Source: a virus (Duplodnaviria > Heunggongvirae > Uroviricota > Caudoviricetes). From it: a stretch of DNA of 17,277 bases. Positions 1-17,000 of this stretch are shown one piece after another; the first letter of the stretch is position 1; every line of letters begins with the position of its first letter. The notes beneath the pieces were generated by a model. That model worked only from the letters and a program-made list of their open reading frames with translations. It ran no database searches and was not told the origin of the DNA. Where the stretch lies: IMG/VR virus record IMGVR_UViG_2529292908_000014, positions 1 to 17,277 of that record; one strand, 5' to 3'. A program made the translations under genes and the position numbers.

Positions 1-572
1 CGCTCACTTGCTTTTGGAGAAGCTGATTATATCGTCCGGGTTCACTGGCGAGGATTGCGCTGGTTAACTGCAGAAGGAATGCGCTTTGACATGATGGGTT
101 TTCTGCGCGGGCTGGATTGCGGTAAGAACGGTGAAACCACTGTAATGATAGGCAATTCAGGTAATAAAAAGCCGGAGCTCCCTTTCCGGCACGTCTCATT
201 GCCGTATCACTTCCTCCCGAAAAAGCATTAATCAGTAAAACCCGACTGCTCAGCGAGAATCGTCGAAAAGGACGAGTAGTTCAGGCGGAAACGCTGGAAG
301 CAGCGGGCCATGTGCTATTGCTAACATCATTACCGGAAGATGAATATTCAGCAGAGCAAGTGGCTGATTGTTACCGTCTGCGATGGCAAATTGAACTGGC
401 TTTTAAGCGGCTCAAAAGTTTGCTGCACCTGGATGCTTTGCGTGCAAAGGAACCTGAACTCGCGAAAGCGTGGATATTTGCTAATCTACTCGCCGCATTT
501 TTAATTGACGACATAATCCAGCCATCGCTGGATTTCCCCCCCAGAAGTGCCGGATCCGAAAAGAAGAACTAA
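1..572 (+). pseudogene. IS4-family (IS186-like) DDE transposase, C-terminal ~190 codons; 5' end outside window; reading frame broken (frame 1 open 1-228, frame 3 open 168-572)
   Basis: Two overlapping stop-free frames both read as transposase (frame 1 ...GEADYIVRVHWRGLRWLTAEGMRFDMMGFLRGL...GNSGNKK; frame 3 ...RVVQAETLEAAGHVLLLTSLPEDEY...YRLRWQIELAFKRLKS...). The switch falls in the A-run aataaaaag at about 163-171. Either a true -1 frameshift or a homopolymer sequencing error. Confidence 0.6.
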
Positions 573-743
573 CTCGTTGTGGAGAATAACAAAAATGGTC
601 ATCTGGAGCTTACAGGTGGCCATTCGTGGGACAGTATCCCTGACAGCCTACAAAACGCAATTGAAGAACGCGAGGCATCGTCTTAACGAGGCACCGAGGC
701 GTCGCATTCTTCAGATGGTTCAACCCTTAAGTTAGCGCTTATG
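1..743 (+). mobile_element. 3' portion of an IS186-like (IS4-family) insertion sequence; continues beyond the left window edge; right terminal inverted repeat ends at about 743
   Basis: Transposase-like reading frames with the IS4-family Y(2)R(3)E(6)K signature (YRLRWQIELAFKRLK, about nt 380-425). Terminal 23 nt caacccttaagttagcgcttatg (721-743) matches my recollection of the IS186 inverted repeat (CATAAGCGCTAACTTAAGGGTTG on the other strand). GC-rich flank ggtcggtggccacgg fits IS186 target preference. Identification is from memory, not a search. Confidence 0.65.
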
Positions 744-1563
744 GGTCGGTGGCCACGGCTTTCATGTTATGAATGCCTGTCTGACCACCACCTGCATTAC
801 CGCTGCCCTGCCCGGATAATGTGCGCACGCTGCCGTCCTCGTTCCAGATGTCCAGTGGCACCACGGCTACCTGTTTCTTGCTGTCTGCGCGGCGGGCGTG
901 GCTCTGAGCCAGTACTGTCAGTTCGGAGAAACAGCCGTTAATGGACCTGGTATCGTCCAGCTCCATCACGTTGTTCCCGGTACCGTCCAGCTTCAGAATC
1001 AGCGTGTCCACCGGCGTGGTGGTGTAGTCAGGGCCACCCACAACCAGCGTACCGTCAGGCTCAAACCACGGCCATAAGCCGCGACCGGCGGCAGCTTTAG
1101 CCAGTGCATCCCACGCACGCATCCCCGGCTCTATAACGACCTTGTCATTACGTGACACACCAGACGCCTGAATACGGATGCGCTGTATCCCCAGCGGTCT
1201 GACTATCCTGTCGATGACCTCGTCCAGTGTCAGCTGATTGGCGCTGAACACCGGCGCGGCACAGTCCACCAGAATGGCGGCATCATCACGCCCGGACAGG
1301 GTCAGCGCGCAGCTCTGACGGGATACACTGCGGCGCACGCTGTCCACGCGACCACTAAGGACCGTCTCATCTCCCACCTGCAAACGGACTGGCACACCCC
1401 GGACGATATCCGCCGGGAACACCTTTTCAGGCAGTCCCAGCTGAAGCTGCCACCCGTCGGCTGCTTTCAGGAAATCGCTGTCAATACGATAACTGCTCCA
1501 GTCAGAATGCGATCTTCCGGCAATGACCAGGCTGATTTTGTCGTCGTTATTTTGCATAGGCAT
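739..1563 (-). CDS. Baseplate hub protein, Mu gp44(P)/P2 gpD-like, 3'-truncated (274 codons; intact homologues are ~380 aa in my recollection); stop codon lies inside the IS terminal repeat
   Basis: ATG at 1563 (alternative ATG at 1557). Protein has the character of the tail late-control-D/baseplate-hub family (…LTLSGRDDAAILVDCAAP…). Last codon and TAA (739-741) fall within the IS repeat ending at 743. Position directly after the gp43-like gene. Confidence 0.55.
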   Translation of the reverse strand: MPMQNNDDKISLVIAGRSHSDWSSYRIDSDFLKAADGWQLQLGLPEKVFPADIVRGVPVRLQVGDETVLSGRVDSVRRSVSRQSCALTLSGRDDAAILVDCAAPVFSANQLTLDEVIDRIVRPLGIQRIRIQASGVSRNDKVVIEPGMRAWDALAKAAAGRGLWPWFEPDGTLVVGGPDYTTTPVDTLILKLDGTGNNVMELDDTRSINGCFSELTVLAQSHARRADSKKQVAVVPLDIWNEDGSVRTLSGQGSGNAGGGQTGIHNMKAVATDP

Positions 1564-2896
1564 TAATCACCATCCCGGCGGTTATGTTGTTCGGGTCACG
1601 CAGCTGCGGGTTCAGACGTTGCAGCTCTGCCGCACGGCTGTAATCACCGTACCACTGCCACGCCAGCAACAGCAGGCAACCGTCCGCCTGCACCTGTTTC
1701 TGCGTCAGCGGTGGGCGGCGTGACAGAGTCAGCAGGCCGACATCCTGCACGGATGCCGCCACGTTCTTCATGCTCTGAATGATTTCCGGGTACATCAGCC
1801 CCAGCGGTGATGCGGTTTCGGTTATCCGTTCGCGTTCGCCTTCATAGCGTTCACGGAACAGCGTGATGGCTGCCTGTAAGCGGGTGCGCACATCCCCGAC
1901 CAGTCGCCCGATATCCGCCGGTATAAGCTGCTCTGACTGGGCCTCATCTGACAGTATCGCCGTCGCCACGCTGGCCAGCTCTGAGGCTGCCAGAACCGCA
2001 TAAGCCGCTTTCACGTCGTGCACGTCTTCCACGGACGCATCCGGCGGAAGTGCCACAGACGGCGTTTTATCACCGCTGACCAGTGCGACCGGCAGCGCGA
2101 CCAGCTCATCCATATCTGCCATCACCTCATTCCAGCAGGTCATCACTGTCGCAGAACTGGCGACGTTGTCTTCCCCGGTCAGTCCGGTCGTGGTGGCGGA
2201 ATCACTACGCGCCAGAACCGGCACCGCGTGCCCGACATCTGACGTGTGGATTTCCAGCACCTCTGCCAGCCCGCCGATAAACTTTCCGGGTTCGCTGGTC
2301 AGTGACACAACATTTTCGACTGTGGAGAATGAATCACTTTTGAACGTCAGCAGGGTATTTACCAGCGTGGCACGCACTGCCTGGATTTTTTTAATCACGC
2401 TGTTAATGGTCTTTAAAGGGGGCGTAACAGCGTCAAAAAATTCGCTTAACTGTGCCAGTAACTTATCCAGTTCTTCAAATAACTGCTGTGCAAACAGCTC
2501 TGGTAACGGGGTGCAGAACAACGCACTGCCGGTGCGGCTCTCCAGAAAGCTCATGTCGATGGTGCAGCTGTCCGGGCTTTCTGCGTCATGGCGAATGCTG
2601 TAGCCGGTCACAATCACCGACGGTACGGAGCCGTAAACCGGGTGAATCAGCTCACCATCGCCGCCTTCGTCCAGGGCAGCGATCAGCTTTTCAAGTTTAT
2701 ATTCGTAATACTCCCCCCACAGGAACGCCGTCATGCGGAACGGTCGCGCCTTGCGTCCGAGGTCGTGCAAATCTGCCCCGTCAACAAACGGGTATTCATA
2801 GACCGCATGGTCGCGGCTGATTTGTTCATCCGTGTTCAGTACATCAAACTGCACGCCACGAAAGGAGGCGTTTTGCAGGTTTTCAGCCCAGCCCAT
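1547..2896 (-). CDS. DNA circulation protein, Mu gp43 (N)-like tail protein
   Basis: 449-aa ORF; N-terminus MGWAENLQNASFRGVQFDV...YEYPFVDGADLHDLGRKARPFRMTAFLWGEYYE resembles the DNA_circ_N family as I recall it. ATG at 2894-2896 overlaps the upstream TGA (TGATG coupling). Sits between the tape-measure ORF and the baseplate hub as in Mu. Confidence 0.7.
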   Translation of the reverse strand: MGWAENLQNASFRGVQFDVLNTDEQISRDHAVYEYPFVDGADLHDLGRKARPFRMTAFLWGEYYEYKLEKLIAALDEGGDGELIHPVYGSVPSVIVTGYSIRHDAESPDSCTIDMSFLESRTGSALFCTPLPELFAQQLFEELDKLLAQLSEFFDAVTPPLKTINSVIKKIQAVRATLVNTLLTFKSDSFSTVENVVSLTSEPGKFIGGLAEVLEIHTSDVGHAVPVLARSDSATTTGLTGEDNVASSATVMTCWNEVMADMDELVALPVALVSGDKTPSVALPPDASVEDVHDVKAAYAVLAASELASVATAILSDEAQSEQLIPADIGRLVGDVRTRLQAAITLFRERYEGERERITETASPLGLMYPEIIQSMKNVAASVQDVGLLTLSRRPPLTQKQVQADGCLLLLAWQWYGDYSRAAELQRLNPQLRDPNNITAGMVINAYAK

Positions 2897-5352
2897 CAGT
2901 AAGTTCCTCCCGTGCCTCTGTTACCGTCCTGAAGGTTGTATTTGTTCACTGCTTCCGCCACAATCTGACCATCGAGCACCAGTTGTGTGGTGAAATTAAT
3001 GGGGCTGGCAGGTGGCCCCCAGTGCGTGAGGTATCCCGGCTGGGTGATGCGTCCGGGTTGCGTTGATACTGATTCAGGCGTTGTGTTTCCGGCGGCTTTG
3101 TTGACCTGCGCCGGTGATGGCAGGGCATCAGCTGCGGCTTTTTTCCTGTCTTCCTCCCAGCGCCTCAACCACTCTTCGTTTTCGGTGGAGTAGCCTTCCC
3201 CAAACTGCCACCACGGCTGGTATTTTTTGCGGGCAGCATCGATGATTTCCTGGGGATATCGGGCGCGGATGCGCTTCCAGCGTTCCTCGCTTCCTTCGAC
3301 GGCGGCGTCTTCTTCCGGGCTGGTTGCGGTGGCCAGTGCCGTAACGGTGCCACCGAAAGAAAGCAGGCTACCGGCAATGCCGGGGAATTTAAATCCTTTG
3401 CCTTTTTTGACCGTGTTTTCAATTACATCACCGACAACCTCGCCAGCCTTGCCACCGGTTTTACCCCCGGTCAGGATTTTGATCCCGGCCCATGTCAGAG
3501 CCGCTGCGGTCATCGCTTCAATGGCGGTCGTGGCACCCACCACTGCCGTGGTCAGTCCCGGAAACTTTTCACCCGCCCAGCTTATGGCATCGGCCACAGT
3601 ACCGGACGCATCAGCCAGCTTTTTCATGCTGTCCATTTGTGAAAATTCAAGCGTGTTTTTGGCCTGTTCGGTTTTAAAGTCATTGAGGCCGGATATGAAT
3701 TTAAAATCCACATCACCCGCGCGCTGACCTTCCGGCAGGGTGCGCTGCTGATTAATCGCGTCTTCAACCTTTTTCCGGTATTCAGGGTTGTTACGGTAAG
3801 CCAGCAACGCTTTTAACGCCTGTTGGTCTGCAACCAGTTTCCCGACACCAAAGCCTTCAAGGAGTTTTGCCATCGAATCATAAACAGCTGTCTGCTCGCC
3901 TTTATCCCGGGCGGAGGCCAGTTTCTTTTGCAACTCCTGAAAGCGTTTATCGCTGGCAGCGATTTTGTCTATCAGACTGGACAGCGCATCTATCGGATCA
4001 AGCCCATGTTCGCGCGCCTGAACCAGCGTGCCGGAAAAATCAATTCCTTTACCGTTGTAATCAATGCTCTTTGCCGCTGTTTCAATATCGTGGCTGGTCA
4101 GTTTAGCCAGCAGGTTAAACACGTTATTTCCGGCCTCATCACTGCTTCCCGCCGTGATGGCGGCAGCTTCATTCAGCGCCAGAATCTTGACAAAATCATC
4201 CTTGCCTCTCATCCCCGCAGCTGACGCTGACCCCAGTTGCGAAGATAACCAGCGGGCCATGTCGCTCAGTTCAAAGCTACCTTCTTTGCCCGCTGCAATT
4301 GCCATATTCAGAACGGTGGAAATATCTTCATCCCTGAATCCAAAGGTCTTTTTACCCTTAAGCATCACATTAGCCAGGTCTGTCGCTGATGCACCGGAAG
4401 CCGTGGCGTATTTCATCAGTTCAGGCAGCCACTTACTGGCTGTTTCAAATGAAATACCGCCATCTTTCAGCAGGGCATCCAGCGTTTCGGCGGCGTCTTC
4501 TTTCGTGCCGCCACCCCAGGTCACCGCGTTACGGATGCTGTTTTTCATCTGCTCAAGACCAGCCCTGCGCCCCTCCAGCCCGCTATCACTGAAGGCGGTA
4601 TTGGCCATCATTGCCAGCTGGCGTTCGTAGCTCATCTGCTTTTTGACCGGCTGCGCCATAATGGCAGCACCTGCTGCGATACCAGCGCCTGTTGTCACGG
4701 CATTCCCGCCAAATGCAGCCGCACGGGCAAAACGCCCCGGTTCGGGGATAACCAGGTCAGGACGGTACGGGCCGTGGCGCAGACCACGCAGTTTTTTACC
4801 ACTACCGGCAACGGTCACCTTGATATTGTTGGCCGTGACGATGGTCCCCATACGCCAGACGCGACCCTGCCCGCACACTTCCGGGAAATCGTTTTTTAAA
4901 CGGGGGTTAAACTCCAGTTCAGCCTTGATGGCTTCCAGCATCGGATAAGCCTGGTCGATACTGTCCATAATGATGACCGGGTAATGCTTAATGGCCCGGA
5001 TAATGGTCCACAGGGTAAACAGCTGAGTCACCAGCGTGGATTTTGCTTCACCACGGGGCGCGGCGATGGCGTCGTTCTCCGGGTCCGGGCTTGCCACAAC
5101 CTGTGGCAGACGGCTGAACAGGTATTTATGCAGCTCACTTTTTGCCGGGTTGCGGACGTAGTGCGGGAAATAATTTTCGACAAAATAATCGTAGCCCGTC
5201 ACCGGGTCGCAGACTGCCGCCCGGCGGGCCTGTGTGGCCTGCGGGTTAACATCGAACCCCAGACATTCAGCCTCGATGGTCTGGCGGAGGTTGGCGATGT
5301 ACTCCTGCAGGCTTCTCTGAAACTCTTTAATGGAAAGTTTACGTTTTGCCAC
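2896..5352 (-). CDS. Chimeric ORF: large terminase N-terminal ATPase fragment (about 220 codons, nt 5352->4747) fused in frame to a tail tape-measure protein (about 615 codons, nt 4746->2899); probable deletion product
   Basis: N-terminal part has a deviant Walker A (AAPRGEAKST), Walker-B-like VIIMDSID and the terminase motif LRGLRHGPYRPDLVI, but the expected DDxE and nuclease domain are missing. From PEPGRFARAAAFGG onward the sequence is tape-measure-like (GSFELSDMARWL, Gly/Ala-rich hydrophobic stretch …LTGGKTGGKAGEVVGDVIENT…). The six-frame track gives 2896..5409 from a TTG; GTG at 5350-5352 directly after the methyltransferase stop is the more plausible start. Confidence 0.6.
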   Translation of the reverse strand: MAKRKLSIKEFQRSLQEYIANLRQTIEAECLGFDVNPQATQARRAAVCDPVTGYDYFVENYFPHYVRNPAKSELHKYLFSRLPQVVASPDPENDAIAAPRGEAKSTLVTQLFTLWTIIRAIKHYPVIIMDSIDQAYPMLEAIKAELEFNPRLKNDFPEVCGQGRVWRMGTIVTANNIKVTVAGSGKKLRGLRHGPYRPDLVIPEPGRFARAAAFGGNAVTTGAGIAAGAAIMAQPVKKQMSYERQLAMMANTAFSDSGLEGRRAGLEQMKNSIRNAVTWGGGTKEDAAETLDALLKDGGISFETASKWLPELMKYATASGASATDLANVMLKGKKTFGFRDEDISTVLNMAIAAGKEGSFELSDMARWLSSQLGSASAAGMRGKDDFVKILALNEAAAITAGSSDEAGNNVFNLLAKLTSHDIETAAKSIDYNGKGIDFSGTLVQAREHGLDPIDALSSLIDKIAASDKRFQELQKKLASARDKGEQTAVYDSMAKLLEGFGVGKLVADQQALKALLAYRNNPEYRKKVEDAINQQRTLPEGQRAGDVDFKFISGLNDFKTEQAKNTLEFSQMDSMKKLADASGTVADAISWAGEKFPGLTTAVVGATTAIEAMTAAALTWAGIKILTGGKTGGKAGEVVGDVIENTVKKGKGFKFPGIAGSLLSFGGTVTALATATSPEEDAAVEGSEERWKRIRARYPQEIIDAARKKYQPWWQFGEGYSTENEEWLRRWEEDRKKAAADALPSPAQVNKAAGNTTPESVSTQPGRITQPGYLTHWGPPASPINFTTQLVLDGQIVAEAVNKYNLQDGNRGTGGTY

Positions 5353-5353
5353 G

Positions 5354-6094
5354 TCACACCTGCACTGCTTCTGTCTGGGCTTTTTCGATACGTGCGCAGG
5401 CGATATCAAAATACTGGTTAGTCATTTCAATGCCGGTAAACCGTCCGCCACGGGCAAGTACAGGGATGGCGGTAGTGCCGCTTCCCATAAACGGATCAAG
5501 GACGTGCGCATCCGGTGTCAGCGGTTTAACCAGCTCAGCCATCAGCTGAACCGGCTTTGCGGTCATGTGCAGTTTTTCGGACGGGACGACACGCTGCGTA
5601 ATCACACCCGGGAACGGGCCACCGTGCGGGCATTTGTCGAGTTTTCCGTTGCTGCCCCAGACCACATACTCGGCCTGATGCCGAAAATAGCCAGTGTGTG
5701 GCGCACGGGAAGCCTGCGTTTTATCCCAGACAACCAGACCACGCCACAGCACACCACCGGCCTGAAATGCATCTGTAAGCGCCGGTAGTTGTCGCCAGTC
5801 ACTGAACACCATGAAATAACCGCCGGAATTCAGCCTGTGCAATGCATGAGATATCCACATGGAACACCAGAACGCCCAGCTGCGCTGGTCGCGGTTATCG
5901 CCGGTGAACTCGGCATACTGGGTGTGACCGATATACTTGTCCGAAGGGGCCATGCTGCGGTCTGATTTGTGTGTACCACCACTGCTGTAAGGCGGGTCGG
6001 TAATGACGGCATCAAAACGTTCGGATAACGCCGGCAGCACATCAAGAACATCACCGCAATACAACGTTGCGTTACCAATAATCTGTTTTTGCAT
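5354..6094 (-). CDS. DNA methyltransferase, beta-class amino-methyltransferase (N6-adenine or N4-cytosine), no restriction partner in the window
   Basis: 246-aa ORF from ATG at 6094. Motif IV DPPY near the N-terminus (…DAVITDPPYSSGG…) and motif I FxGxG near the C-terminus (…LDPFMGSGTTAIPV…), the permuted order typical of this class. Confidence 0.85.
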   Translation of the reverse strand: MQKQIIGNATLYCGDVLDVLPALSERFDAVITDPPYSSGGTHKSDRSMAPSDKYIGHTQYAEFTGDNRDQRSWAFWCSMWISHALHRLNSGGYFMVFSDWRQLPALTDAFQAGGVLWRGLVVWDKTQASRAPHTGYFRHQAEYVVWGSNGKLDKCPHGGPFPGVITQRVVPSEKLHMTAKPVQLMAELVKPLTPDAHVLDPFMGSGTTAIPVLARGGRFTGIEMTNQYFDIACARIEKAQTEAVQV

Positions 6095-6140
6095 TACAAA
6101 TCCCGAATATCAGACGACCCGGAAAACCGGGCCGCTGTGG

Positions 6141-6641
6141 TTAACTGAAATTATCCTCAAGCTCTTTAGCGAAGCCTTCGAGCACCTCAAGAAACGGGGC
6201 ATACTGCGTCGGGTGACGCTCCTTGATGAACGCGCCGAGCCGCTGCACCACTTCCAGTGCCGTGGCGAGCCGGTCGGTTTCCGGCAGGATTTTTTTACTG
6301 CTGGCCACCGCCTTACTGAGACTGTCGGACAGACTCGCCAGCAGTTCGACGGACTCCTGCGGCGGGATGTCCGGGTTCTGGTTCAGCCGTTCAAGCGTCG
6401 TCTGACACTTCACCACCAGACTGATAAGCACGGTGCGGGCGACACTTTCCAGCCCGTCACCGGCGAGCGCGTGCGCGGCCCGCAGCTTGTCCCAGTCGTC
6501 GCCGTTCTTCATCGCCTGCGTTTTCCAGCGCCGCGCGGTGTCGTGCGGCACGGCGTACTTCATGGCGACGATATCCAGCGGAAGCTGGTCAAAGATGTAC
6601 CCGTTACGGACTTTGTCCCTGATATCCTGTGACCACGCCAT
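6141..6641 (-). CDS. Putative small terminase / DNA-binding packaging protein (Mu gp27-like)
   Basis: 166-aa ORF, ATG at 6641 overlapping the upstream TAA (TAATG). Predicted helix-rich N-terminus (…IRDKVRNGYIFDQLPLDIVAMKYAVPHDTARRWKTQA…). Located just upstream of the terminase-like ORF. Functional call rests on position and recall. Confidence 0.45.
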   Translation of the reverse strand: MAWSQDIRDKVRNGYIFDQLPLDIVAMKYAVPHDTARRWKTQAMKNGDDWDKLRAAHALAGDGLESVARTVLISLVVKCQTTLERLNQNPDIPPQESVELLASLSDSLSKAVASSKKILPETDRLATALEVVQRLGAFIKERHPTQYAPFLEVLEGFAKELEDNFS

Positions 6642-6847
6642 TAAGTGTCCTTCTGAGCCTGTTCAATCCTGCGCTGAACTTCGTCGGGATTTTCAAGAAC
6701 AAATACGTTTTTCCCGGTATCCAGTTCAATGACCGTGCCATCATGTGTACCGTACTGACGGTAAAAATGGGTGATTCGTTCAGCGAGCACCATGACAGCG
6801 CCAGCACCTCCTGAACCTGTGTATTCTGTAAATCTGATAATGCTCAC
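6641..6847 (-). CDS. Small hypothetical protein (68 codons from GTG at 6847; 50 codons from ATG at 6793)
   Basis: Open frame between the lipoprotein ORF and the gp27-like gene; stop overlaps the next start; no recognisable motif. Confidence 0.3.
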   Translation of the reverse strand: MSIIRFTEYTGSGGAGAVMVLAERITHFYRQYGTHDGTVIELDTGKNVFVLENPDEVQRRIEQAQKDT

Positions 6848-6867
6848 TGTGTCAGACCTTCAAAAAA

Positions 6868-7050
6868 TCAGTTCTGCGAACACTGCCGGATACCGTCAAT
6901 AATCCGGCAGACCTGCGCCGCCGCGTCAAACAGCTGGCCCGCTCTGTTAATGTCTGAGCATCCCACCGGAAGCAACATCATCAGAAACAGGGCCAGAACA
7001 CAGCGCGCGGCTTTACGTGGCGTTCTGTGGGGCCAGCGACTTCTGTTCAT
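6868..7050 (-). CDS. Small putative lipoprotein (possible o-spanin-like lysis accessory protein)
   Basis: 60-aa ORF, ATG at 7050, 13 nt after the endolysin stop. Basic N-region, hydrophobic core LALFLMMLLPV, then Cys (…LPVGC…), resembling a lipoprotein signal; short Cys-containing mature part. No transmembrane i-spanin partner found. Confidence 0.35.
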   Translation of the reverse strand: MNRSRWPHRTPRKAARCVLALFLMMLLPVGCSDINRAGQLFDAAAQVCRIIDGIRQCSQN

Positions 7051-7063
7051 AACCCGTCCCGCA

Positions 7064-7441
7064 TCAGCGTTTTAACTGGAAATGAGGCCCGTCTTTCAGC
7101 GTTTTCCAGTCTCCGCCCCATTCGATGGCGACACCCAGCTCTGCGGCAGCCTGTTTAAAGGCACGGGCGATTTTTTCGTATAACGGCCAGTCCCATGAAA
7201 TAGTGCTACCAACGTAAGCCACGACATCAACGGCATCGCCAGTAAGGTGACGGCTGTTCATGGTCTGGCTCTTGCCTTCAGCGACAAGTTGTTTCTGACG
7301 TTCTTTCGTGCGTAAACCTTCGGTAATACCAAAATCGACGTCCGACAACGCCAGCGCACGGCGTACAACTGCCACCAGTTGTGGCTTTACGTCAGCCAGA
7401 TTTTTCTCGCTACGTTGACTGAAACGGAATTTTCCCGACAT
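7064..7441 (-). CDS. Endolysin, zinc metallopeptidase M15 family (L-alanyl-D-glutamate peptidase-like)
   Basis: ATG at 7439-7441 preceded by GGAGGTG; 126 codons. Zn-ligand pattern H-x3-D (…SRHLTGDAVDV…) and a distal His (…DGPHFQL…). No signal peptide, so holin-dependent. The six-frame ORF extends to 7684, but the internal ATG with a Shine-Dalgarno sequence fits the gene boundary. Confidence 0.8.
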   Translation of the reverse strand: MSGKFRFSQRSEKNLADVKPQLVAVVRRALALSDVDFGITEGLRTKERQKQLVAEGKSQTMNSRHLTGDAVDVVAYVGSTISWDWPLYEKIARAFKQAAAELGVAIEWGGDWKTLKDGPHFQLKR

Positions 7442-7443
7442 AT

Positions 7444-7722
7444 TCACCTCCGCAATAACGAAAGGATTTTTGACAAATTCCCGTGCGCCCACACGATAAG
7501 CGCACAGAAAACCAGATTCAGCGCCACAACCAGCCAGCTGGATTGCGTGTATGTACCGGACAGCCAGCGGAACGGGATGATGACGTAGCCGAGCATCAGC
7601 CAGTACGCCAGCCAGGTAATCATCGGTTTGTGCGCCGCACCGTGGCGGCGATACACAAACAACCCCAGAACAATGGTGAGACACAGCCAGACGTTCACGA
7701 TACCGGCAAGGCTACTTTCCAT
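7444..7722 (-). CDS. Small membrane protein, three predicted transmembrane segments (holin or antiholin candidate)
   Basis: ATG at 7720-7722 preceded by GGAGGGGG; about 92 codons; hydrophobic segments SLAGIVNVWLCLTIVLGLFVY, MITWLAYWLMLGYVIIPF, WLVVALNLVFCALIVWA; ends 2 nt before the endolysin start. Confidence 0.5.
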   Translation of the reverse strand: MESSLAGIVNVWLCLTIVLGLFVYRRHGAAHKPMITWLAYWLMLGYVIIPFRWLSGTYTQSSWLVVALNLVFCALIVWAHGNLSKILSLLRR

Positions 7723-8104
7723 TTCCACCCCCTCCGCCGCGCAGTCTGGAAAACAGGCCGAACAGCGATGAAATTTCCTGTTGATAAAGAAAGGTCAGTA
7801 TCTTGATGGATAACGCCGAGACACCGACCGCACACAATGCATCGAGCGGCTTGTCGTTGTAGTGGGTCAGCCACTGCATCAGTGACGCAGCCACGCCAGC
7901 CCCCAGAACGCCAACCACAAATGCGACGAGCAGGTGGATGGCCATTCGCCAGACCGGGATTTCTTTCTGCTGCGTGACAACAAAAAGCGCCCCGGCAAAC
8001 GCGCCCACCACAACCCCGAAATCGGTATTGGTGAGAAGACCAAACACACTGGCACCACCAATGGTGACTGCCACAGCTCCACCGCCTGATAAGGGTTCAG
8101 ACAT
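7712..8104 (-). CDS. Membrane protein with 3-4 predicted transmembrane segments (putative holin)
   Basis: ATG at 8102-8104 preceded by AGGAGAAA; 130 codons; Gly/Ala-rich hydrophobic helices (…AVAVTIGGASVFGLL…, …FGVVVGAFAGALFVV…, …AIHLLVAFVVGVLGAGVAASLM…); first gene of the lysis cassette. Confidence 0.5.
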   Translation of the reverse strand: MSEPLSGGGAVAVTIGGASVFGLLTNTDFGVVVGAFAGALFVVTQQKEIPVWRMAIHLLVAFVVGVLGAGVAASLMQWLTHYNDKPLDALCAVGVSALSIKILTFLYQQEISSLFGLFSRLRGGGGGNGK

Positions 8105-8286
8105 GAGTTTCTCCTGTAAATCTGAGCCACTGACGGCCCGTAAATAACACCCTGTCAAAGGCACAGAAGCCTTTTGCAGGGCGCTATCCCTTAAGGTGCC
8201 TTGTGGTCTGAGTGGACAGGGTAAACGGTCTGGTGTGGTGGGTACTGCTGAGGGAGTTCAGCACCCCGCGGCGGCGGGGTGATAAA

Positions 8287-8565
8287 TCAGAAGCGGGAAA
8301 GAGAATCCGGCGTAATAAGAGGTTTATTACAAAGCGGAGCAGAGGCGTTCGCCTTTTCCATCGCTGCACGCATCTCGTTTTCGCTGGCGATGATGTCAGC
8401 AATGGCACACTGCAACGCTTCTTCCTGAACAACCATATCCGGTTGTTCGGCCATTCGGTTTAGCTGGCTGGCCAGATTTTTCATATAAGCGAAGCGGCGT
8501 CCGGCAGCATCCCGGGCCTGCTCTGAGTAGGCTGTATACTCGCCAAGTGCCGTATAGTTGGTCAT
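8287..8565 (-). CDS. Hypothetical protein (92 aa) in the position where Mu has the late activator C
   Basis: ATG at 8563-8565 with a strong Shine-Dalgarno sequence (AAAAAGGAGACACTT-ATG); no Mor/C-like motif. Confidence 0.4.
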   Translation of the reverse strand: MTNYTALGEYTAYSEQARDAAGRRFAYMKNLASQLNRMAEQPDMVVQEEALQCAIADIIASENEMRAAMEKANASAPLCNKPLITPDSLSRF

Positions 8566-8591
8566 AAGTGTCTCCTTTTTTCTGAGGCCCA

Positions 8592-9868: not shown

Positions 9869-10071
9869 TGTTGGTTATTATTTAATTACTTTGCGTTAGT
9901 GTGATTCTTCCAGCGATTTTGGGCTGCGCTGGGCTTGTTAAGGGAACACATCACAATATCAGCTGTGTTTGTGAACAAACCCATTCTGCGGTTACTGAGT
10001 TTTAGCCATTGCTGGACGCCGCGAGCGTTTCTACAGGTCAAAAGAATTTTTGCTTTACGTTTTTCATCTGA

Positions 10072-10380
10072 TTATTCCCCTGAAATCAGTCCTGAACGGA
10101 TTACTGTTTTTGCAATATGCGCCCGTAATTGCTGCGTTCCGTGGTATTTGATTGCCACATCGCGTAATTTATTAACCAGCTCCCTGAGCTGATACTCTTT
10201 TGCTCCCGGTGTCACCGGAATGATTCCTGCTCTCCGGTATTCCTGAAGCTCCAGCAGGGACTGCCGTAAGAGCGTCCACCACTCTCTGTCTACAATCGGC
10301 CCGCGCATATCAAGCATTTTGTCAGCATCGGCAATCAGTCTGGTCAGGCTCTTATCGCTTATTCTGGTTTGCTGGTTCAC
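10072..10380 (-). CDS. Hypothetical early protein (102 aa)
   Basis: GTG at 10378-10380 overlaps the upstream TGA (GTGA coupling); first ATG at 10317; no recognised motif. Confidence 0.4.
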   Translation of the reverse strand: MNQQTRISDKSLTRLIADADKMLDMRGPIVDREWWTLLRQSLLELQEYRRAGIIPVTPGAKEYQLRELVNKLRDVAIKYHGTQQLRAHIAKTVIRSGLISGE

Positions 10381-10667
10381 TGCGCCGCCTCCTGCTCATT
10401 TTTTTCACTCCGGTATACCAAAATCACGATATCTCCCTGGGTAATTACGCGTGCCGGATCTCCCTGCTGCATACGGTCAATATCAAAAGCGTCATTAAAC
10501 GCATTTAGCGCCTTCACGCGCTTGTCTTTGCGGCGACGTTTTTCACATTGCTTAAAGAACGAAGAAATCAACCACCTGAATGACATAAAAATGATATAGC
10601 CATAACCGATAAGCGCCAGACCTGTATTCATGGCTACATCTATCGTTATCGTTTTATCAATGACCAT
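10377..10667 (-). CDS. Small membrane protein (96 aa, one N-terminal transmembrane helix, basic cytoplasmic segment)
   Basis: ATG at 10667 preceded by AGGAGG; hydrophobic stretch NTGLALIGYGYIIFMSF followed by KQCEKRRRKDKR. Confidence 0.45.
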   Translation of the reverse strand: MVIDKTITIDVAMNTGLALIGYGYIIFMSFRWLISSFFKQCEKRRRKDKRVKALNAFNDAFDIDRMQQGDPARVITQGDIVILVYRSEKNEQEAAQ

Positions 10668-10887
10668 TGCCAGCCTCCTGTTTTGCCACCTTAAACGCCC
10701 GTAACATCGGAACCGTTTTACCGGTGATGACTGTTCTCATTAAAAGACCGCCACCGCTCTCATGGCGCACTTCAGGAGCAACAAACAGCGCCGCATCCAC
10801 AACCCGGCGATAGCGGCGGAACTCCCAGAACCAGCAGGTAACAATGATTTTTGCGGTGACTCCGTAGTCATAAAATTCAATATTCAT
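10657..10887 (-). CDS. Hypothetical early protein (76 aa)
   Basis: ATG at 10885-10887 overlapping the upstream TGA (ATGA coupling). Confidence 0.4.
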   Translation of the reverse strand: MNIEFYDYGVTAKIIVTCWFWEFRRYRRVVDAALFVAPEVRHESGGGLLMRTVITGKTVPMLRAFKVAKQEAGNGH

Positions 10888-12101: not shown

Positions 12102-12293
12102 TTAATGCGGTGCTTTCAGTGTTTCGATTTTAACGAAATAAGGCTCGACATTAATTTCAACCACACAACCACATTTAAAATCTCTGGCAGGTGAAACGGT
12201 TTTCACCACACGACCACCACGCAACGCCGGATGTGCAGTGTGCATGAAGCGAGTCCCTACCGGATACTGCTTATTAAAGTTCTTCGCATTCAT
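12102..12293 (-). CDS. Hypothetical early protein (63 aa)
   Basis: ATG at 12291-12293; overlaps the 3' end of the preceding ORF by 20 nt; no motif recognised. Confidence 0.35.
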   Translation of the reverse strand: MNAKNFNKQYPVGTRFMHTAHPALRGGRVVKTVSPARDFKCGCVVEINVEPYFVKIETLKAPH

Positions 12294-12507
12294 GGCGTGG
12301 CCTCCAGCCCTTCAGGTGAGCGTTAGCGCAGAACTCCGCACGATGTTCAGCCCAGATGCGGCGCAGGGTGCTACACGGGCTTTGCGCTGCCTTGCGCCAC
12401 AGTTTTTCTGCCTCATCATAATCGCCGCGTTGTTCTGCTCTGGATGCACCCAGCGAATACGCCGCGCAACGATTTCCGGCTCTGTACTCTTTGATATCCT
12501 GATGCAT
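12274..12507 (-). CDS. Small protein, possibly ANR-family-like regulator (77 aa)
   Basis: ATG at 12505-12507, 1 nt after the upstream TAA; pattern …AEQRGDYDEAEKLWRKAA…WAEHRAEFC… resembles small ANR-type proteins as I recall them (low certainty). Confidence 0.35.
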   Translation of the reverse strand: MHQDIKEYRAGNRCAAYSLGASRAEQRGDYDEAEKLWRKAAQSPCSTLRRIWAEHRAEFCANAHLKGWRPRHECEEL

Positions 12508-13789: not shown

Positions 13790-14008
13790 TTAATCGCGCA
13801 CAGCATTCATCAACATCCCAGTCGTCGCTGGTGTTTCCGGTTCCATTGATTTCCCGTTCGCGGGAATATAAATCAATACGCAGTTCACCCGGCACGAAGC
13901 AATCAACAAACGGAATAATTTCACCGGGGGTTCCATTAAAATAAATACAACCATTACGACCGATATTCCGTAGTGCTTTAATTTCTTTTTTACGGCAATC
14001 TGTTCCAT
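13790..14008 (-). CDS. Hypothetical small protein (72 aa) at the Mu kil position; gene call uncertain
   Basis: ATG at 14006-14008, 13 nt after the B stop, weak AAGG upstream. An alternative stop-free frame (B's frame, 14021->13680, 114 codons without a canonical start) overlaps it, so which frame is coding is unresolved. Confidence 0.3.
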   Translation of the reverse strand: MEQIAVKKKLKHYGISVVMVVFILMEPPVKLFRLLIASCRVNCVLIYIPANGKSMEPETPATTGMLMNAVRD

Positions 14009-14933: not shown

Positions 14934-17000
14934 TTAACGGTTGTTTGTGCCGTTTTTCTTTAAATTGCGCTCGCGTTCAGATGCGAATAAATAAAGTTCT
15001 TCTTTTTCCTTTTTCTCCGGGCGCTCCAGACCAAATCCAAAATTAAACTCAGATTTCTGCGTAATAGCCGGGGTAAGCTCGCGTTTCGCCTCTTCGATTT
15101 TCTGCGTGGCCCGTGCAATACGGCCCCTGACGCGTTTCTCCAGTTTTTGCTCGATAACTGGTTTAGCGAAGGCATCAACCTTATTGCCGTTCCAGATGGC
15201 ATCGCAGATATAAGAGCCATCAGCCCGCCGGACAATGACACTGTTTGCATCATGAATATCGTAACTGACCCTGACTTCATTCCCGTGCTCTGCGGCCAGC
15301 TCATATGAGTAATAAATATTGTTGAATAACTGAATTTCCCCGCGAAATGTTTTGCGCGTCACCTCCGGTCTGAACATTTCATGCAGTTCTTCCGGCGACA
15401 GGAAATCAATTTCAACATTCTGCTCTTTTATCAGTTTCCGGCGATACGCTGCCGGGCTGTAATATTCGCCATCCTCTTTGCGGGGAAGGCTGCTGTGTGG
15501 CCGGTTGTTATAGCGTCTGACCTCCAGCTCTATGGCCGCCATCAGTTGCTCAAAGGTGGGGATTTCATCCCTCGCCTTAACCTGCCGTTTTGTCAGCTCT
15601 TTCCCTTTGTGGGTGGCCTTAATGGCTGACTGCATAATCCGTTGCTGCATCATTACGGTTTCCTTGTCTGCTCCCTTTGAGCAGTACGTCCGGAAACTCA
15701 GGGCCACATCCCGGGGAATTTCCTTGTTAAGCCTTTCAATCACCCCGCGCCCCTGTGGGTTACCTGGTATCCCCGTGTGATGTTCCACACCCAGCCGGGG
15801 GAGAACCCCGGTAATATCGGCATCAAGCACCCGGTTTTTTTCGCCGCCCCCGTTATCGGAGTAATAAATCAGCGGTATCCCGTGCTGTGCCATGCCGTAA
15901 CGCAACGCATCAGCAACGGCTATCACGTTTTCCGACAGGGACAGTGACCAGCCCACAACAAAGCGCTGCCCCGCATCCATAACCAGCGTCACTTCTGGCC
16001 GGAAAATATTGCCGGTCAGGGGGTTAAACGCGGTCATTTTCATACAGTGACCATCCCCGACCCATACCGCATTAACCGGTAATGTGCTCCAGTCGCGCCG
16101 CACAAAGGGATTGAGCGAACGCCAGGCTGAACCGGTGGAGCGGAAACGCTCTTTAACAATCACCGGGACGCTGCTTAACACCCGTCTGACTGCGTGAACT
16201 GAGGGCAGTGCCGCCAGCATTCCCGCATCGTTCGCGTGCTTCTCATGCCACCAGGCTGAAAACTCGCGATACGCATATTCAACGGTCGGGCGCTTCCATG
16301 AGCGATAGAACATAAAGAAATCGCTCAACCACCAGACCTGCTCCCACGGTGTTCCCTTATGATGACCGGGAGCCAGTAACGCCAGTAACTGATTGGCATC
16401 ACCGCGCGCCATCACCCAGCTGGAGTACCAGCTATCCAGGCTGCCGGTGCTGACACCGGTTCGCTTTCCCTGACGTGCATTTGCAGTATTCGCTGCTTCG
16501 ATAATGCGGTCAGGTAACGCCCCCATGCGCACACCATCAACGATGTGCTTTAACGCGGCCTTCCTGGTCATTCTGGCGTATTCACGCAGTTTATGCACTT
16601 CAGTAGCCAGCAATATCCGCGCATCAGCAATGGCCTTTTGCTTGTCGGTCAGTGCCTGGACTTCGCGTAATGCCAGTTCCGGGCATTTGACCATCACTTC
16701 CAGTTCATCGCGAACAGCAACGTTTTTAACTGCCTTCTGCTCAACCACAACGGGCAGTTGTGCATCTTCCAGAACCTGCTGGGCTAGACGTTGACGTAAA
16801 GCCTTCTGCGTTTCAGTGGGAAGGCTATGAATATGATATTCAACACCCCCACCTTTCATTTCTCTAACTCTACTCGCCCACTTATCTCGCTTCGCTTTTA
16901 CCGCAATCCCTACTCGTGTTGATGGAATTCCCGGCAAAGATAGATCTGCTAATTCTTGGGCCGAATAGTGCGTTTTTACACAGTCATCACTCATAACCAC
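14934..17000 (-). CDS. A: Mu-type DDE transposase A
   Basis: 688-aa ORF. N-terminus …AQELADLSLPGIPSTRVGIAVKAKRDKWASRVREMKGGGVEYHIHSLPTETQKAL parallels the MuA enhancer-binding domain as I recall it. Size and position between ner and B. Likely start at ATG 16992-16994 (track start 17000 is GTG). Confidence 0.9.
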   Translation of the reverse strand: MVMSDDCVKTHYSAQELADLSLPGIPSTRVGIAVKAKRDKWASRVREMKGGGVEYHIHSLPTETQKALRQRLAQQVLEDAQLPVVVEQKAVKNVAVRDELEVMVKCPELALREVQALTDKQKAIADARILLATEVHKLREYARMTRKAALKHIVDGVRMGALPDRIIEAANTANARQGKRTGVSTGSLDSWYSSWVMARGDANQLLALLAPGHHKGTPWEQVWWLSDFFMFYRSWKRPTVEYAYREFSAWWHEKHANDAGMLAALPSVHAVRRVLSSVPVIVKERFRSTGSAWRSLNPFVRRDWSTLPVNAVWVGDGHCMKMTAFNPLTGNIFRPEVTLVMDAGQRFVVGWSLSLSENVIAVADALRYGMAQHGIPLIYYSDNGGGEKNRVLDADITGVLPRLGVEHHTGIPGNPQGRGVIERLNKEIPRDVALSFRTYCSKGADKETVMMQQRIMQSAIKATHKGKELTKRQVKARDEIPTFEQLMAAIELEVRRYNNRPHSSLPRKEDGEYYSPAAYRRKLIKEQNVEIDFLSPEELHEMFRPEVTRKTFRGEIQLFNNIYYSYELAAEHGNEVRVSYDIHDANSVIVRRADGSYICDAIWNGNKVDAFAKPVIEQKLEKRVRGRIARATQKIEEAKRELTPAITQKSEFNFGFGLERPEKKEKEELYLFASERERNLKKNGTNNR

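What the first reader, a model, noticed from the sequence alone, without database searches (positions are those of the whole stretch)
2896..5352. In-frame chimera of a large-terminase ATPase fragment and a tail tape-measure protein
The ORF starts like a large terminase (deviant Walker A AAPRGEAKST, then …LRGLRHGPYRPDLVI) but the acidic DDxE continuation and the nuclease domain are absent. From codon ~222 (plus nt ~4741-4749, minus-strand GAC CTG GTT ATC CCC GAA = DLVIPE) it continues as a tape-measure protein through to the gp43-like gene. In Mu the terminase and tape-measure genes are separated by portal, head, sheath and tube genes, none of which is in the window. The simplest reading is a single ~10-15 kb deletion that happened to land in frame, making the prophage unable to package or build virions while keeping early and lysis functions. 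A natural protein or an assembly chimera is not excluded.
Basis: partly seen in the sequence, partly recalled or inferred. Interest (0 to 1): 0.6.

Follow-up and report, generated by a model that had tools for sequence, protein, structure and literature searches.

The report
Deletion-made terminase/tape-measure fusion in defective prophage

Summary
The ORF is real: minus strand 5352..2896, GTG start, 818 aa. Residues 1-202 are identical to residues 1-202 of the 546-aa large terminase of an intact prophage in E. coli O166:H15 JNE21-009. Residues 201-818 match residues 140-757 of that prophage's 757-aa tape-measure protein, with one substitution. In the intact prophage the two breakpoints lie 11,390 bp apart. 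That interval holds the terminase Walker B and nuclease part, portal, head morphogenesis, protease, major head, sheath, tube and chaperone-position genes, plus the tape-measure N-terminus. The junction is a 7-bp perfect microhomology, GGATAAC (window 4746-4752), which fits short-homology illegitimate recombination. It is not an assembly artefact. An independent assembly of run SRR9913975 has the identical junction, and 7 bp is too short to cause a mis-join. None of 5,426 complete E. coli genomes, 50,697 phage records or the genome and metagenome scans has the junction, so it looks private to one lineage. A second lesion is an IS421 copy (window 1-742) that truncates the baseplate-hub gene. Early genes (except one small ORF split by a 1-nt homopolymer difference) and lysis genes are full-length ORFs. 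Novelty and interest are low.

The parts
2896..5352 (-). Fusion ORF, 818 aa, GTG start. It is EHV61426.1 'hypothetical protein ECDEC6C_2123' of E. coli DEC6C.
4753..5352 (-). terL-derived part: terminase large subunit residues 1-200, plus the shared Val-Ile. It has Walker A (AAPRGEAKST from residue 98). It lacks the Walker B acidic residues and the nuclease domain.
   Evidence: PHROG 38 E 3e-49, match on residues 3-203. 100% identical to residues 1-202 of the intact 546-aa terL. The intact protein continues LDDIENDE and carries TIGR01630 at residues 383-516.
4746..4752 (.). Deletion junction: a 7-bp perfect microhomology, GGATAAC (minus strand GTT ATC C, Val-Ile). It extends to 10 of 11 bases, TCG[G/A]GGATAAC. 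The intact relative has it at both endpoints and the window keeps one copy.
   Evidence: Base-by-base three-way comparison.
2896..4745 (-). Tape-measure-derived part: residues 142-757 of the 757-aa protein. The N-terminal ~140 residues are missing.
   Evidence: PHROG 794 E 7e-188. PF10145. One substitution in 618 residues against the intact protein.
5354..6094 (-). DNA methyltransferase gene directly upstream. Its TGA stop lies 1 nt before the fusion's GTG start, as in the intact relative.
   Evidence: PF01555 and PHROG 67. Sequence. Annotation.
6141..6641 (-). DUF1804 gene, two genes upstream of terL with the methyltransferase gene between them. This roughly corresponds to the place of Mu's small-terminase gene gp27, which directly precedes gp28.
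   Evidence: PF08822 E 2e-52. Positions compared.
1547..2896 (-). Gene for a protein like Mu's DNA-circularisation protein N (gp43). It is intact, and its start overlaps the fusion's stop.
   Evidence: PF07157. PHROG 184..
739..1563 (-). Baseplate-hub gene (like Mu gp44/P) truncated to 274 aa, against 403 aa in the intact relative. The stop codon lies inside the IS.
1..742 (.). Partial IS421 (IS4 family) copy. The contig starts inside it. It is a second inactivating lesion of the tail module.
   Evidence: 99.3-99.7% identity to annotated IS421 copies in 2,223 genomes. Homology to the intact prophage starts at window 743.

Best explanation
The window is the first 17.3 kb of contig AIFX01000054.1 of E. 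coli DEC6C and carries a Mu-like transposable prophage.

Shown: a single 11,390-bp internal deletion removed everything from terL codon 203 to tape-measure codon ~140. The lost genes are the terL Walker B and nuclease part, portal (DUF935), head morphogenesis, virion morphogenesis, protease/scaffold, major head, head-tail and neck genes, sheath, tube, the chaperone-position genes and the tape-measure N-terminus. The endpoints share a 7-bp direct repeat, GGATAAC, of which one copy remains.

Inferred: the repeat is the signature of RecA-independent short-homology deletion (replication slippage or illegitimate recombination). The join is in frame by chance (about 1 in 3). It encodes a terL(1-202)::tape-measure(142-757) chimera that remains translationally coupled to its neighbours, so it would probably be made from the late lysis-to-terminase operon on induction.

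Inferred: the chimera can be neither a packaging ATPase/nuclease nor a working tape measure. It has Walker A but not Walker B or the nuclease domain. It lacks the tape-measure N-terminus, and there are no tube, sheath or chaperone genes. Together with the IS421 insertion in the baseplate-hub gene, the prophage cannot build heads or tails. Its transposase A, ATPase B, Mor, GemA, holin and endolysin genes remain full-length ORFs; one small 110-aa early ORF is split by a 1-nt homopolymer difference that may be a sequencing error.
For: - Two-family composition: PHROG 38 on residues 3-203, PHROG 794 on the remainder; PF10145; TIGR01630 only in the intact terL, residues 383-516.
- Intact comparator L001: terL and tape-measure are separate genes with 17 genes between them. 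The window aligns as two collinear blocks, 743-4756 and 4742-8272, at 99.95% and 99.77%.
- Exact junction and 7-bp microhomology.
- Halves are identical to the intact proteins apart from one substitution.
- Same junction and same IS421 boundary in the independent Logan assembly of SRR9913975.
- No contiguous match in 5,426 complete E. coli genomes, in 50,697 phage records, in GTDB species representatives or in JGI metagenomes.
- The protein's 90%-identity cluster has 90 members. Among the 15 listed (of 40 read), the others are 756-757-aa tape-measure proteins or partial fragments of 179-478 aa.
- Phage Mu and Klebsiella phage ST405-OXA48phi1.1 have the same gene order with about 10 kb between the two genes.
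- Early genes are full length.
Against: - No raw reads were inspected.
- SRR9913975 may be the same strain re-sequenced. It would then rule out an assembler artefact but would not show that the deletion is spread in nature.
- The deletion could have arisen in laboratory passage.
- Expression and non-function of the chimera are inferred, not measured.
- Calling LVILDD-IENDE the Walker B and catalytic Glu rests on the general motif pattern of terminase ATPases. No solved structure matched by sequence.
Confidence: 0.94

Rival explanations
1. Assembly chimera: the assembler wrongly joined the terL and tape-measure regions, and the real genome has the intact prophage.
For: The source is a 2012 draft assembly. 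The contig ends in an IS, and the window differs from the other two sequences at one homopolymer (window 13986-13991). So the assembly is not error-free.
Against: The two sides share only 7 bp (10 of 11), far below any assembler's overlap or k-mer length. An independent run assembled by a different pipeline (Logan, SRR9913975, 76.5-kb contig) has the identical junction and encodes the identical 818-aa protein. The junction lies about 4.7 kb inside a 98.7-kb contig.
Confidence: 0.02
2. A natural or domesticated fusion protein kept for a function, for example a terminase N-terminal fragment that interferes with packaging by incoming related phages.
For: The join is in frame. The ORF keeps its translational coupling to the genes on both sides. 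It would be co-transcribed with the lysis genes.
Against: It was found in only two near-identical assemblies. Every other relative found has two separate genes. There is no divergence since the deletion (0 and 1 substitutions), so nothing shows selection. An in-frame join is expected by chance one time in three. The same prophage carries a second, clearly disruptive IS lesion.
Confidence: 0.02
3. The deletion was made by a transposition-related event (IS421-mediated or Mu-transposase-mediated adjacent deletion) rather than by short-homology slippage.
For: An IS421 copy sits 4 kb away. Transposable elements are known to generate adjacent deletions (general knowledge).
Against: Neither endpoint abuts an IS end or a Mu end. 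Both endpoints are inside coding sequence and share a 7-bp direct repeat of which one copy remains. That is the footprint of microhomology-mediated deletion, not of transposase cleavage.
Confidence: 0.02

Closest known systems
Intact Mu-like prophage of E. coli O166:H15 JNE21-009 (NZ_AP041814.1, about 1,143,600-1,178,500)
   Same: 99.8-99.95% nucleotide identity across window 743-8272. The gene order is the same: DUF1804, DNA methyltransferase, terL, then tape-measure, DNA circularisation and baseplate genes.
   Different: It keeps the 11,390 bp between the breakpoints, with a separate 546-aa terL and 757-aa tape-measure protein. It has no IS421 in the baseplate-hub gene. Its early region is only ~95% identical, with some replaced segments.
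Escherichia phage Mu (NC_000929): gp28 large terminase and gp42 tape-measure protein
   Same: The late-gene order is the same: small terminase, terL, portal, F, G, I/Z, T, then L sheath, M tube, chaperone, tape measure, N, P. The early and middle gene families match too: Mu-type transposase, B ATPase, GemA, Mor.
   Different: No significant BLASTP similarity between the fusion and Mu gp28 or gp42 (best E 0.9 and 0.02). A DNA methyltransferase gene sits between the DUF1804 gene and terL. The relation is one of architecture, not close kinship.
Klebsiella phage ST405-OXA48phi1.1 (MK388859) and Mannheimia phage vB_MhM_3927AP2 (Mu-like myoviruses)
   Same: These are the closest deposited phages to the tape-measure part, at 50% and 38% identity. 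The Klebsiella phage shows the same gene order, with terL about 10 kb upstream of the tape-measure gene.
   Different: Both have separate, full-length genes. They are only distantly related at the sequence level, and there is no megablast match.
Defective or cryptic prophages decayed by deletion and IS insertion (general phenomenon in E. coli)
   Same: An internal deletion removes morphogenesis genes, an IS disrupts another structural gene, and regulatory and lysis genes are retained.
   Different: Here the deletion endpoints can be mapped to the base. The join happens to be in frame and yields an annotated 818-aa 'hypothetical protein'.

Membership tests
Phage terminase large subunit (TerL) | N-terminal ATPase domain homologous to TerL, with a Walker A P-loop | tested here: met
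   PHROG 38 E 3e-49 on residues 3-203. AAPRGEAKST from residue 98. Residues 1-202 are identical to a RefSeq-annotated terL.
Phage terminase large subunit (TerL) | Walker B acidic residues and catalytic glutamate after the hydrophobic strand | tested here: not met
   The intact protein reads PDLVILDDIENDE and the fusion reads PDLVIPEPGRF. Calling this stretch Walker B is motif-based inference.
Phage terminase large subunit (TerL) | C-terminal nuclease domain | tested here: not met
   TIGR01630 matches residues 383-516 of the intact terL (E 2e-25) and is absent from the fusion.
Tail length tape-measure protein | Tape-measure core domain (PF10145 / PHROG 794) | tested here: met
   PF10145 E 1e-19, above the gathering score. 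PHROG 794 E 7e-188 over profile positions 152-751 of 763.
Tail length tape-measure protein | Complete protein with its own N-terminus and start codon | tested here: not met
   Residues 1-139 of the 757-aa protein are deleted. The PHROG match starts at profile position 152.
Tail length tape-measure protein | Genomic context: preceded by tube and chaperone genes, followed by baseplate-hub genes | tested here: not met
   The downstream N-like and P-like genes are present. The upstream sheath, tube and chaperone-position genes are absent from the window and present in the intact relative.
Mu-like transposable prophage | Mu-type DDE transposase A, AAA+ B protein, GemA, Mor, and a Mu-type late-gene order | tested here: met
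   PF09299 and PF02316 (transposase), AAA_22/TniB (B), PF06252 (GemA) and PF08765 (Mor) in the called genes. The late-gene order in the intact relative matches Mu.
Genus-level kinship with Mu (Muvirus) | Sequence similarity of terL and tape-measure protein to Mu gp28 and gp42 | tested here: not met
   BLASTP best E 0.9 and 0.02. No megablast hit to any deposited phage.
Microhomology-mediated (short-homology) deletion | A short direct repeat at both endpoints in the undeleted sequence, one copy retained at the junction, and no inserted bases | tested here: met
   GGATAAC is present at L001 21947-21953 and 33337-33343, with a single copy at window 4746-4752 and a seamless join.

The most novel reading that the evidence does not exclude
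The in-frame terL(1-202)::tape-measure(142-757) chimera might be expressed from the late operon and retained because it does something. For example, a Walker-A-only terminase fragment might poison the packaging motor of superinfecting related Mu-like phages. My evidence does not exclude this, and nothing in it points that way.
Probability: 0.02. Interest if true: 0.4.

Novelty: already known. Interest (0 to 1): 0.1.

Why it matters
Its value is mostly practical. It shows that 'hypothetical protein ECDEC6C_2123' is a deletion-generated pseudogene fusion and should be annotated as such, and that this DEC6C prophage cannot make particles. It is also a cleanly mapped case of prophage decay by 7-bp microhomology deletion plus IS insertion, with an almost identical intact relative available as reference. 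It opens no new biological question.

Tried and rejected
- Megablast of the region against deposited phages found nothing. Protein-mode search found only distant Mu-like phages, always as two separate places.
- Pfam has no model that hits this terL lineage, either for the fragment or for the intact protein. NCBIfam gave only weak T7-type terminase hits for the N-terminal part.
- PDB sequence searches with the fragment and with the intact terL gave no true hit; the one match, ICOS ligand at E 0.53, is noise. The Walker B assignment therefore could not be anchored on a solved structure.
- Exact scans for the 47-nt junction in GTDB representative genomes and JGI metagenomes found nothing.
- Literature searches for the accession found nothing. 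A search for DEC6C and SRR9913975 returned three unrelated papers that mention DEC6C only.
- The exact-sequence and cluster look-ups, together with the 99.9%-identical intact relative, already settle the question.
- I considered an IS- or Mu-transposase-mediated deletion and rejected it because no element end lies at the junction.
Full report
**What is in the sequence.** The minus strand carries an uninterrupted ORF from 5409 (TTG) to 2896. The start used in the closest annotated relative is the GTG at 5352, one base after the TGA of the upstream DNA-methyltransferase gene, and it gives 818 aa. The stop of the ORF overlaps the ATG of the downstream gene at 2896.

**Two families in one ORF.**
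- The first 221 residues hit PHROG 38, terminase large subunit (E 3e-49), and the match ends at residue 203.
- The remaining 597 residues hit PHROG 794, tail length tape measure protein (E 7e-188, profile positions 152-751 of 763).
- Pfam finds only PF10145 (PhageMin_Tail) at residues 283-473.

The neighbours upstream are DUF1804 and an N6/N4 DNA methyltransferase. Downstream are a DNA-circularisation N-like gene and a gp44/P-like baseplate-hub gene.

**An intact relative maps the deletion to the base.**
- Megablast of window 2800-5500 against 5,426 complete E. coli genomes found 59 genomes with matches. None had a place covering 80% or more of the query, and nearly all listed records hold two or more separate places; the best place always stops at about window 4756.
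- The best hit, E. coli O166:H15 JNE21-009 (NZ_AP041814.1, locus L001), has a complete Mu-like prophage. Its gene order is DUF1804, methyltransferase, terL (546 aa), DUF935 portal, head morphogenesis, virion morphogenesis, protease, a hypothetical gene, gpT major head, HI1506-related, gp436, DUF1834, DUF2635, sheath, three small genes, tape-measure (757 aa), DNA circularisation, baseplate.
- The window aligns to it as two collinear blocks. Window 743-4756 matches L001 17944-21956 at 99.95%, and window 4742-8272 matches L001 33333-36862 at 99.77%.
- In the base-by-base comparison, tape-measure-side identity runs up to window 4752 and terL-side identity runs down to window 4746. The two sides share GGATAAC, or 10 of 11 bases as TCG[G/A]GGATAAC. 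The missing interval is 11,390 bp.
- On the coding strand the shared heptamer is GTT ATC C, so both parent proteins contribute the same Val-Ile. The chimera is terL 1-202 joined to tape-measure 142-757. The terL part is identical to the intact protein and the tape-measure part differs at one residue.
From the GTG the switch is at residue 202.

**What was lost.**
- The intact terL continues LDDIENDE after PDLVI. This is the pattern expected for the Walker B acidic residues and catalytic glutamate of terminase ATPases. That reading rests on general knowledge of the motif, because no PDB protein matched by sequence.
- The intact terL also has the C-terminal terminase model TIGR01630 at residues 383-516, which the fusion lacks.
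- The tape-measure part lacks its first ~140 residues.
- All head, neck, sheath, tube and chaperone-position genes are gone.

**Not an assembly artefact, and not a natural fusion.**
- The exact 818-aa protein is encoded on two contigs. One is AIFX01000054.1 of GCA_000249635.2 (E. coli DEC6C, protein EHV61426.1 'hypothetical protein ECDEC6C_2123'), of which the window is the first 17,277 bases. The other is a 76.5-kb Logan contig of run SRR9913975.
- The Logan contig has the same junction. It also ends a few bases into the same IS421 boundary.
- A 7-bp overlap cannot produce an assembler mis-join.
- The junction 47-mer is absent from GTDB representative genomes and JGI metagenomes.
- No phage record holds the two halves in one place.
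- The protein's 90%-identity cluster has 90 members. Among the 15 listed (of 40 read), the others are 756-757-aa tape-measure proteins or partial fragments of 179-478 aa.
- Phage Mu and Klebsiella phage ST405-OXA48phi1.1 both show the same gene order, with about 10 kb between the two genes.

**Mechanism.**
- Shown: one seamless deletion between two copies of a 7-bp direct repeat, with one copy kept.
- Inferred: it arose by short-homology illegitimate recombination or replication slippage. For arbitrary breakpoints a perfect overlap of 7 bp or more is expected well under 1 time in 1,000 (my estimate).
- Inferred: the in-frame outcome is chance, about 1 in 3.
- Inferred: the chimera is still co-transcribed and translationally coupled in the late operon, but it is non-functional for packaging and for tail-length determination.

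There is a second lesion. Window 1-742 is IS421 (99.3-99.7% identical to annotated copies). Homology to the intact prophage begins at window 743, and the baseplate-hub gene is cut to 274 aa against 403 aa.

Early genes and lysis genes are full-length ORFs, including transposase A (688-aa ORF), B (297 aa), GemA, Mor, two holins and an M15 endolysin. The exception is one small 110-aa early ORF split by a 1-nt homopolymer difference, possibly a sequencing error. The likely phenotype is a prophage that can still be immune, may still transpose and lyse, and cannot make virions.

**Comparison with known systems.** The element is Mu-like in architecture and in its early gene families. Its terL and tape-measure proteins show no BLASTP similarity to Mu gp28 and gp42, and no deposited phage matches at the nucleotide level. 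The phenomenon, prophage decay by internal deletion and IS insertion, is well known.

**Verdict.** The feature is a real but ordinary pseudogene fusion, private to one E. coli lineage as far as the searched collections show. Interest is 0.1. The only more exciting reading is that the chimera is retained for a function such as interference with related phages. It has no support beyond the reading frame being open, and I put it at about 2%.

Noticed in passing
window 1-742 and 739-1563: A partial IS421 (IS4 family) copy lies at the very start of the contig. It truncates the gp44/P-like baseplate-hub gene to 274 aa, against 403 aa in the intact relative. Only one IS end is visible, so I cannot tell whether the distal baseplate and tail-fibre genes survive elsewhere in the genome.
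   Followed up: partly
window 13986-13991: This T6 run (A6 on the coding strand) is one base shorter than in SRR9913975, which has A7. The difference splits a 110-aa early ORF into a 72-aa call. The ORF is also a full 110 aa in JNE21-009. In this 2012 draft it may be a homopolymer sequencing error rather than a real frameshift.
   Followed up: partly
L001 1-13000 and L004 5771-8001 (NZ_AP041814.1): In the comparator genome the intact Mu-like prophage appears to be inserted inside another myovirus-type prophage. It sits between that prophage's DNA-circularisation gene and its baseplate-assembly genes, making a nested prophage.
   Followed up: no
window 12274-12507 (-): This small early-region gene corresponds to the one annotated 'ANR family transcriptional regulator' in the relative. 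A paper on the ANR antivirulence regulator family mentions DEC6C (PMC4038620; I did not read it). An ANR gene carried on a transposable prophage may be worth a look.
   Followed up: no
window 8273-8567 and 9869-10668: These segments have little or no nucleotide match to the otherwise 96-99.9% identical JNE21-009 prophage; the only match inside them is an 86-bp block at window 10309-10394. From window 12614 onwards the early region is only ~95% identical, and the match ends at 16825, inside the transposase N-terminal region. This is ordinary mosaicism of early and immunity regions.
   Followed up: no
window 5354-6094 (-): An N6/N4 DNA methyltransferase gene sits between the DUF1804 gene and terL. 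Phage Mu has no gene between gp27 and gp28.
   Followed up: no
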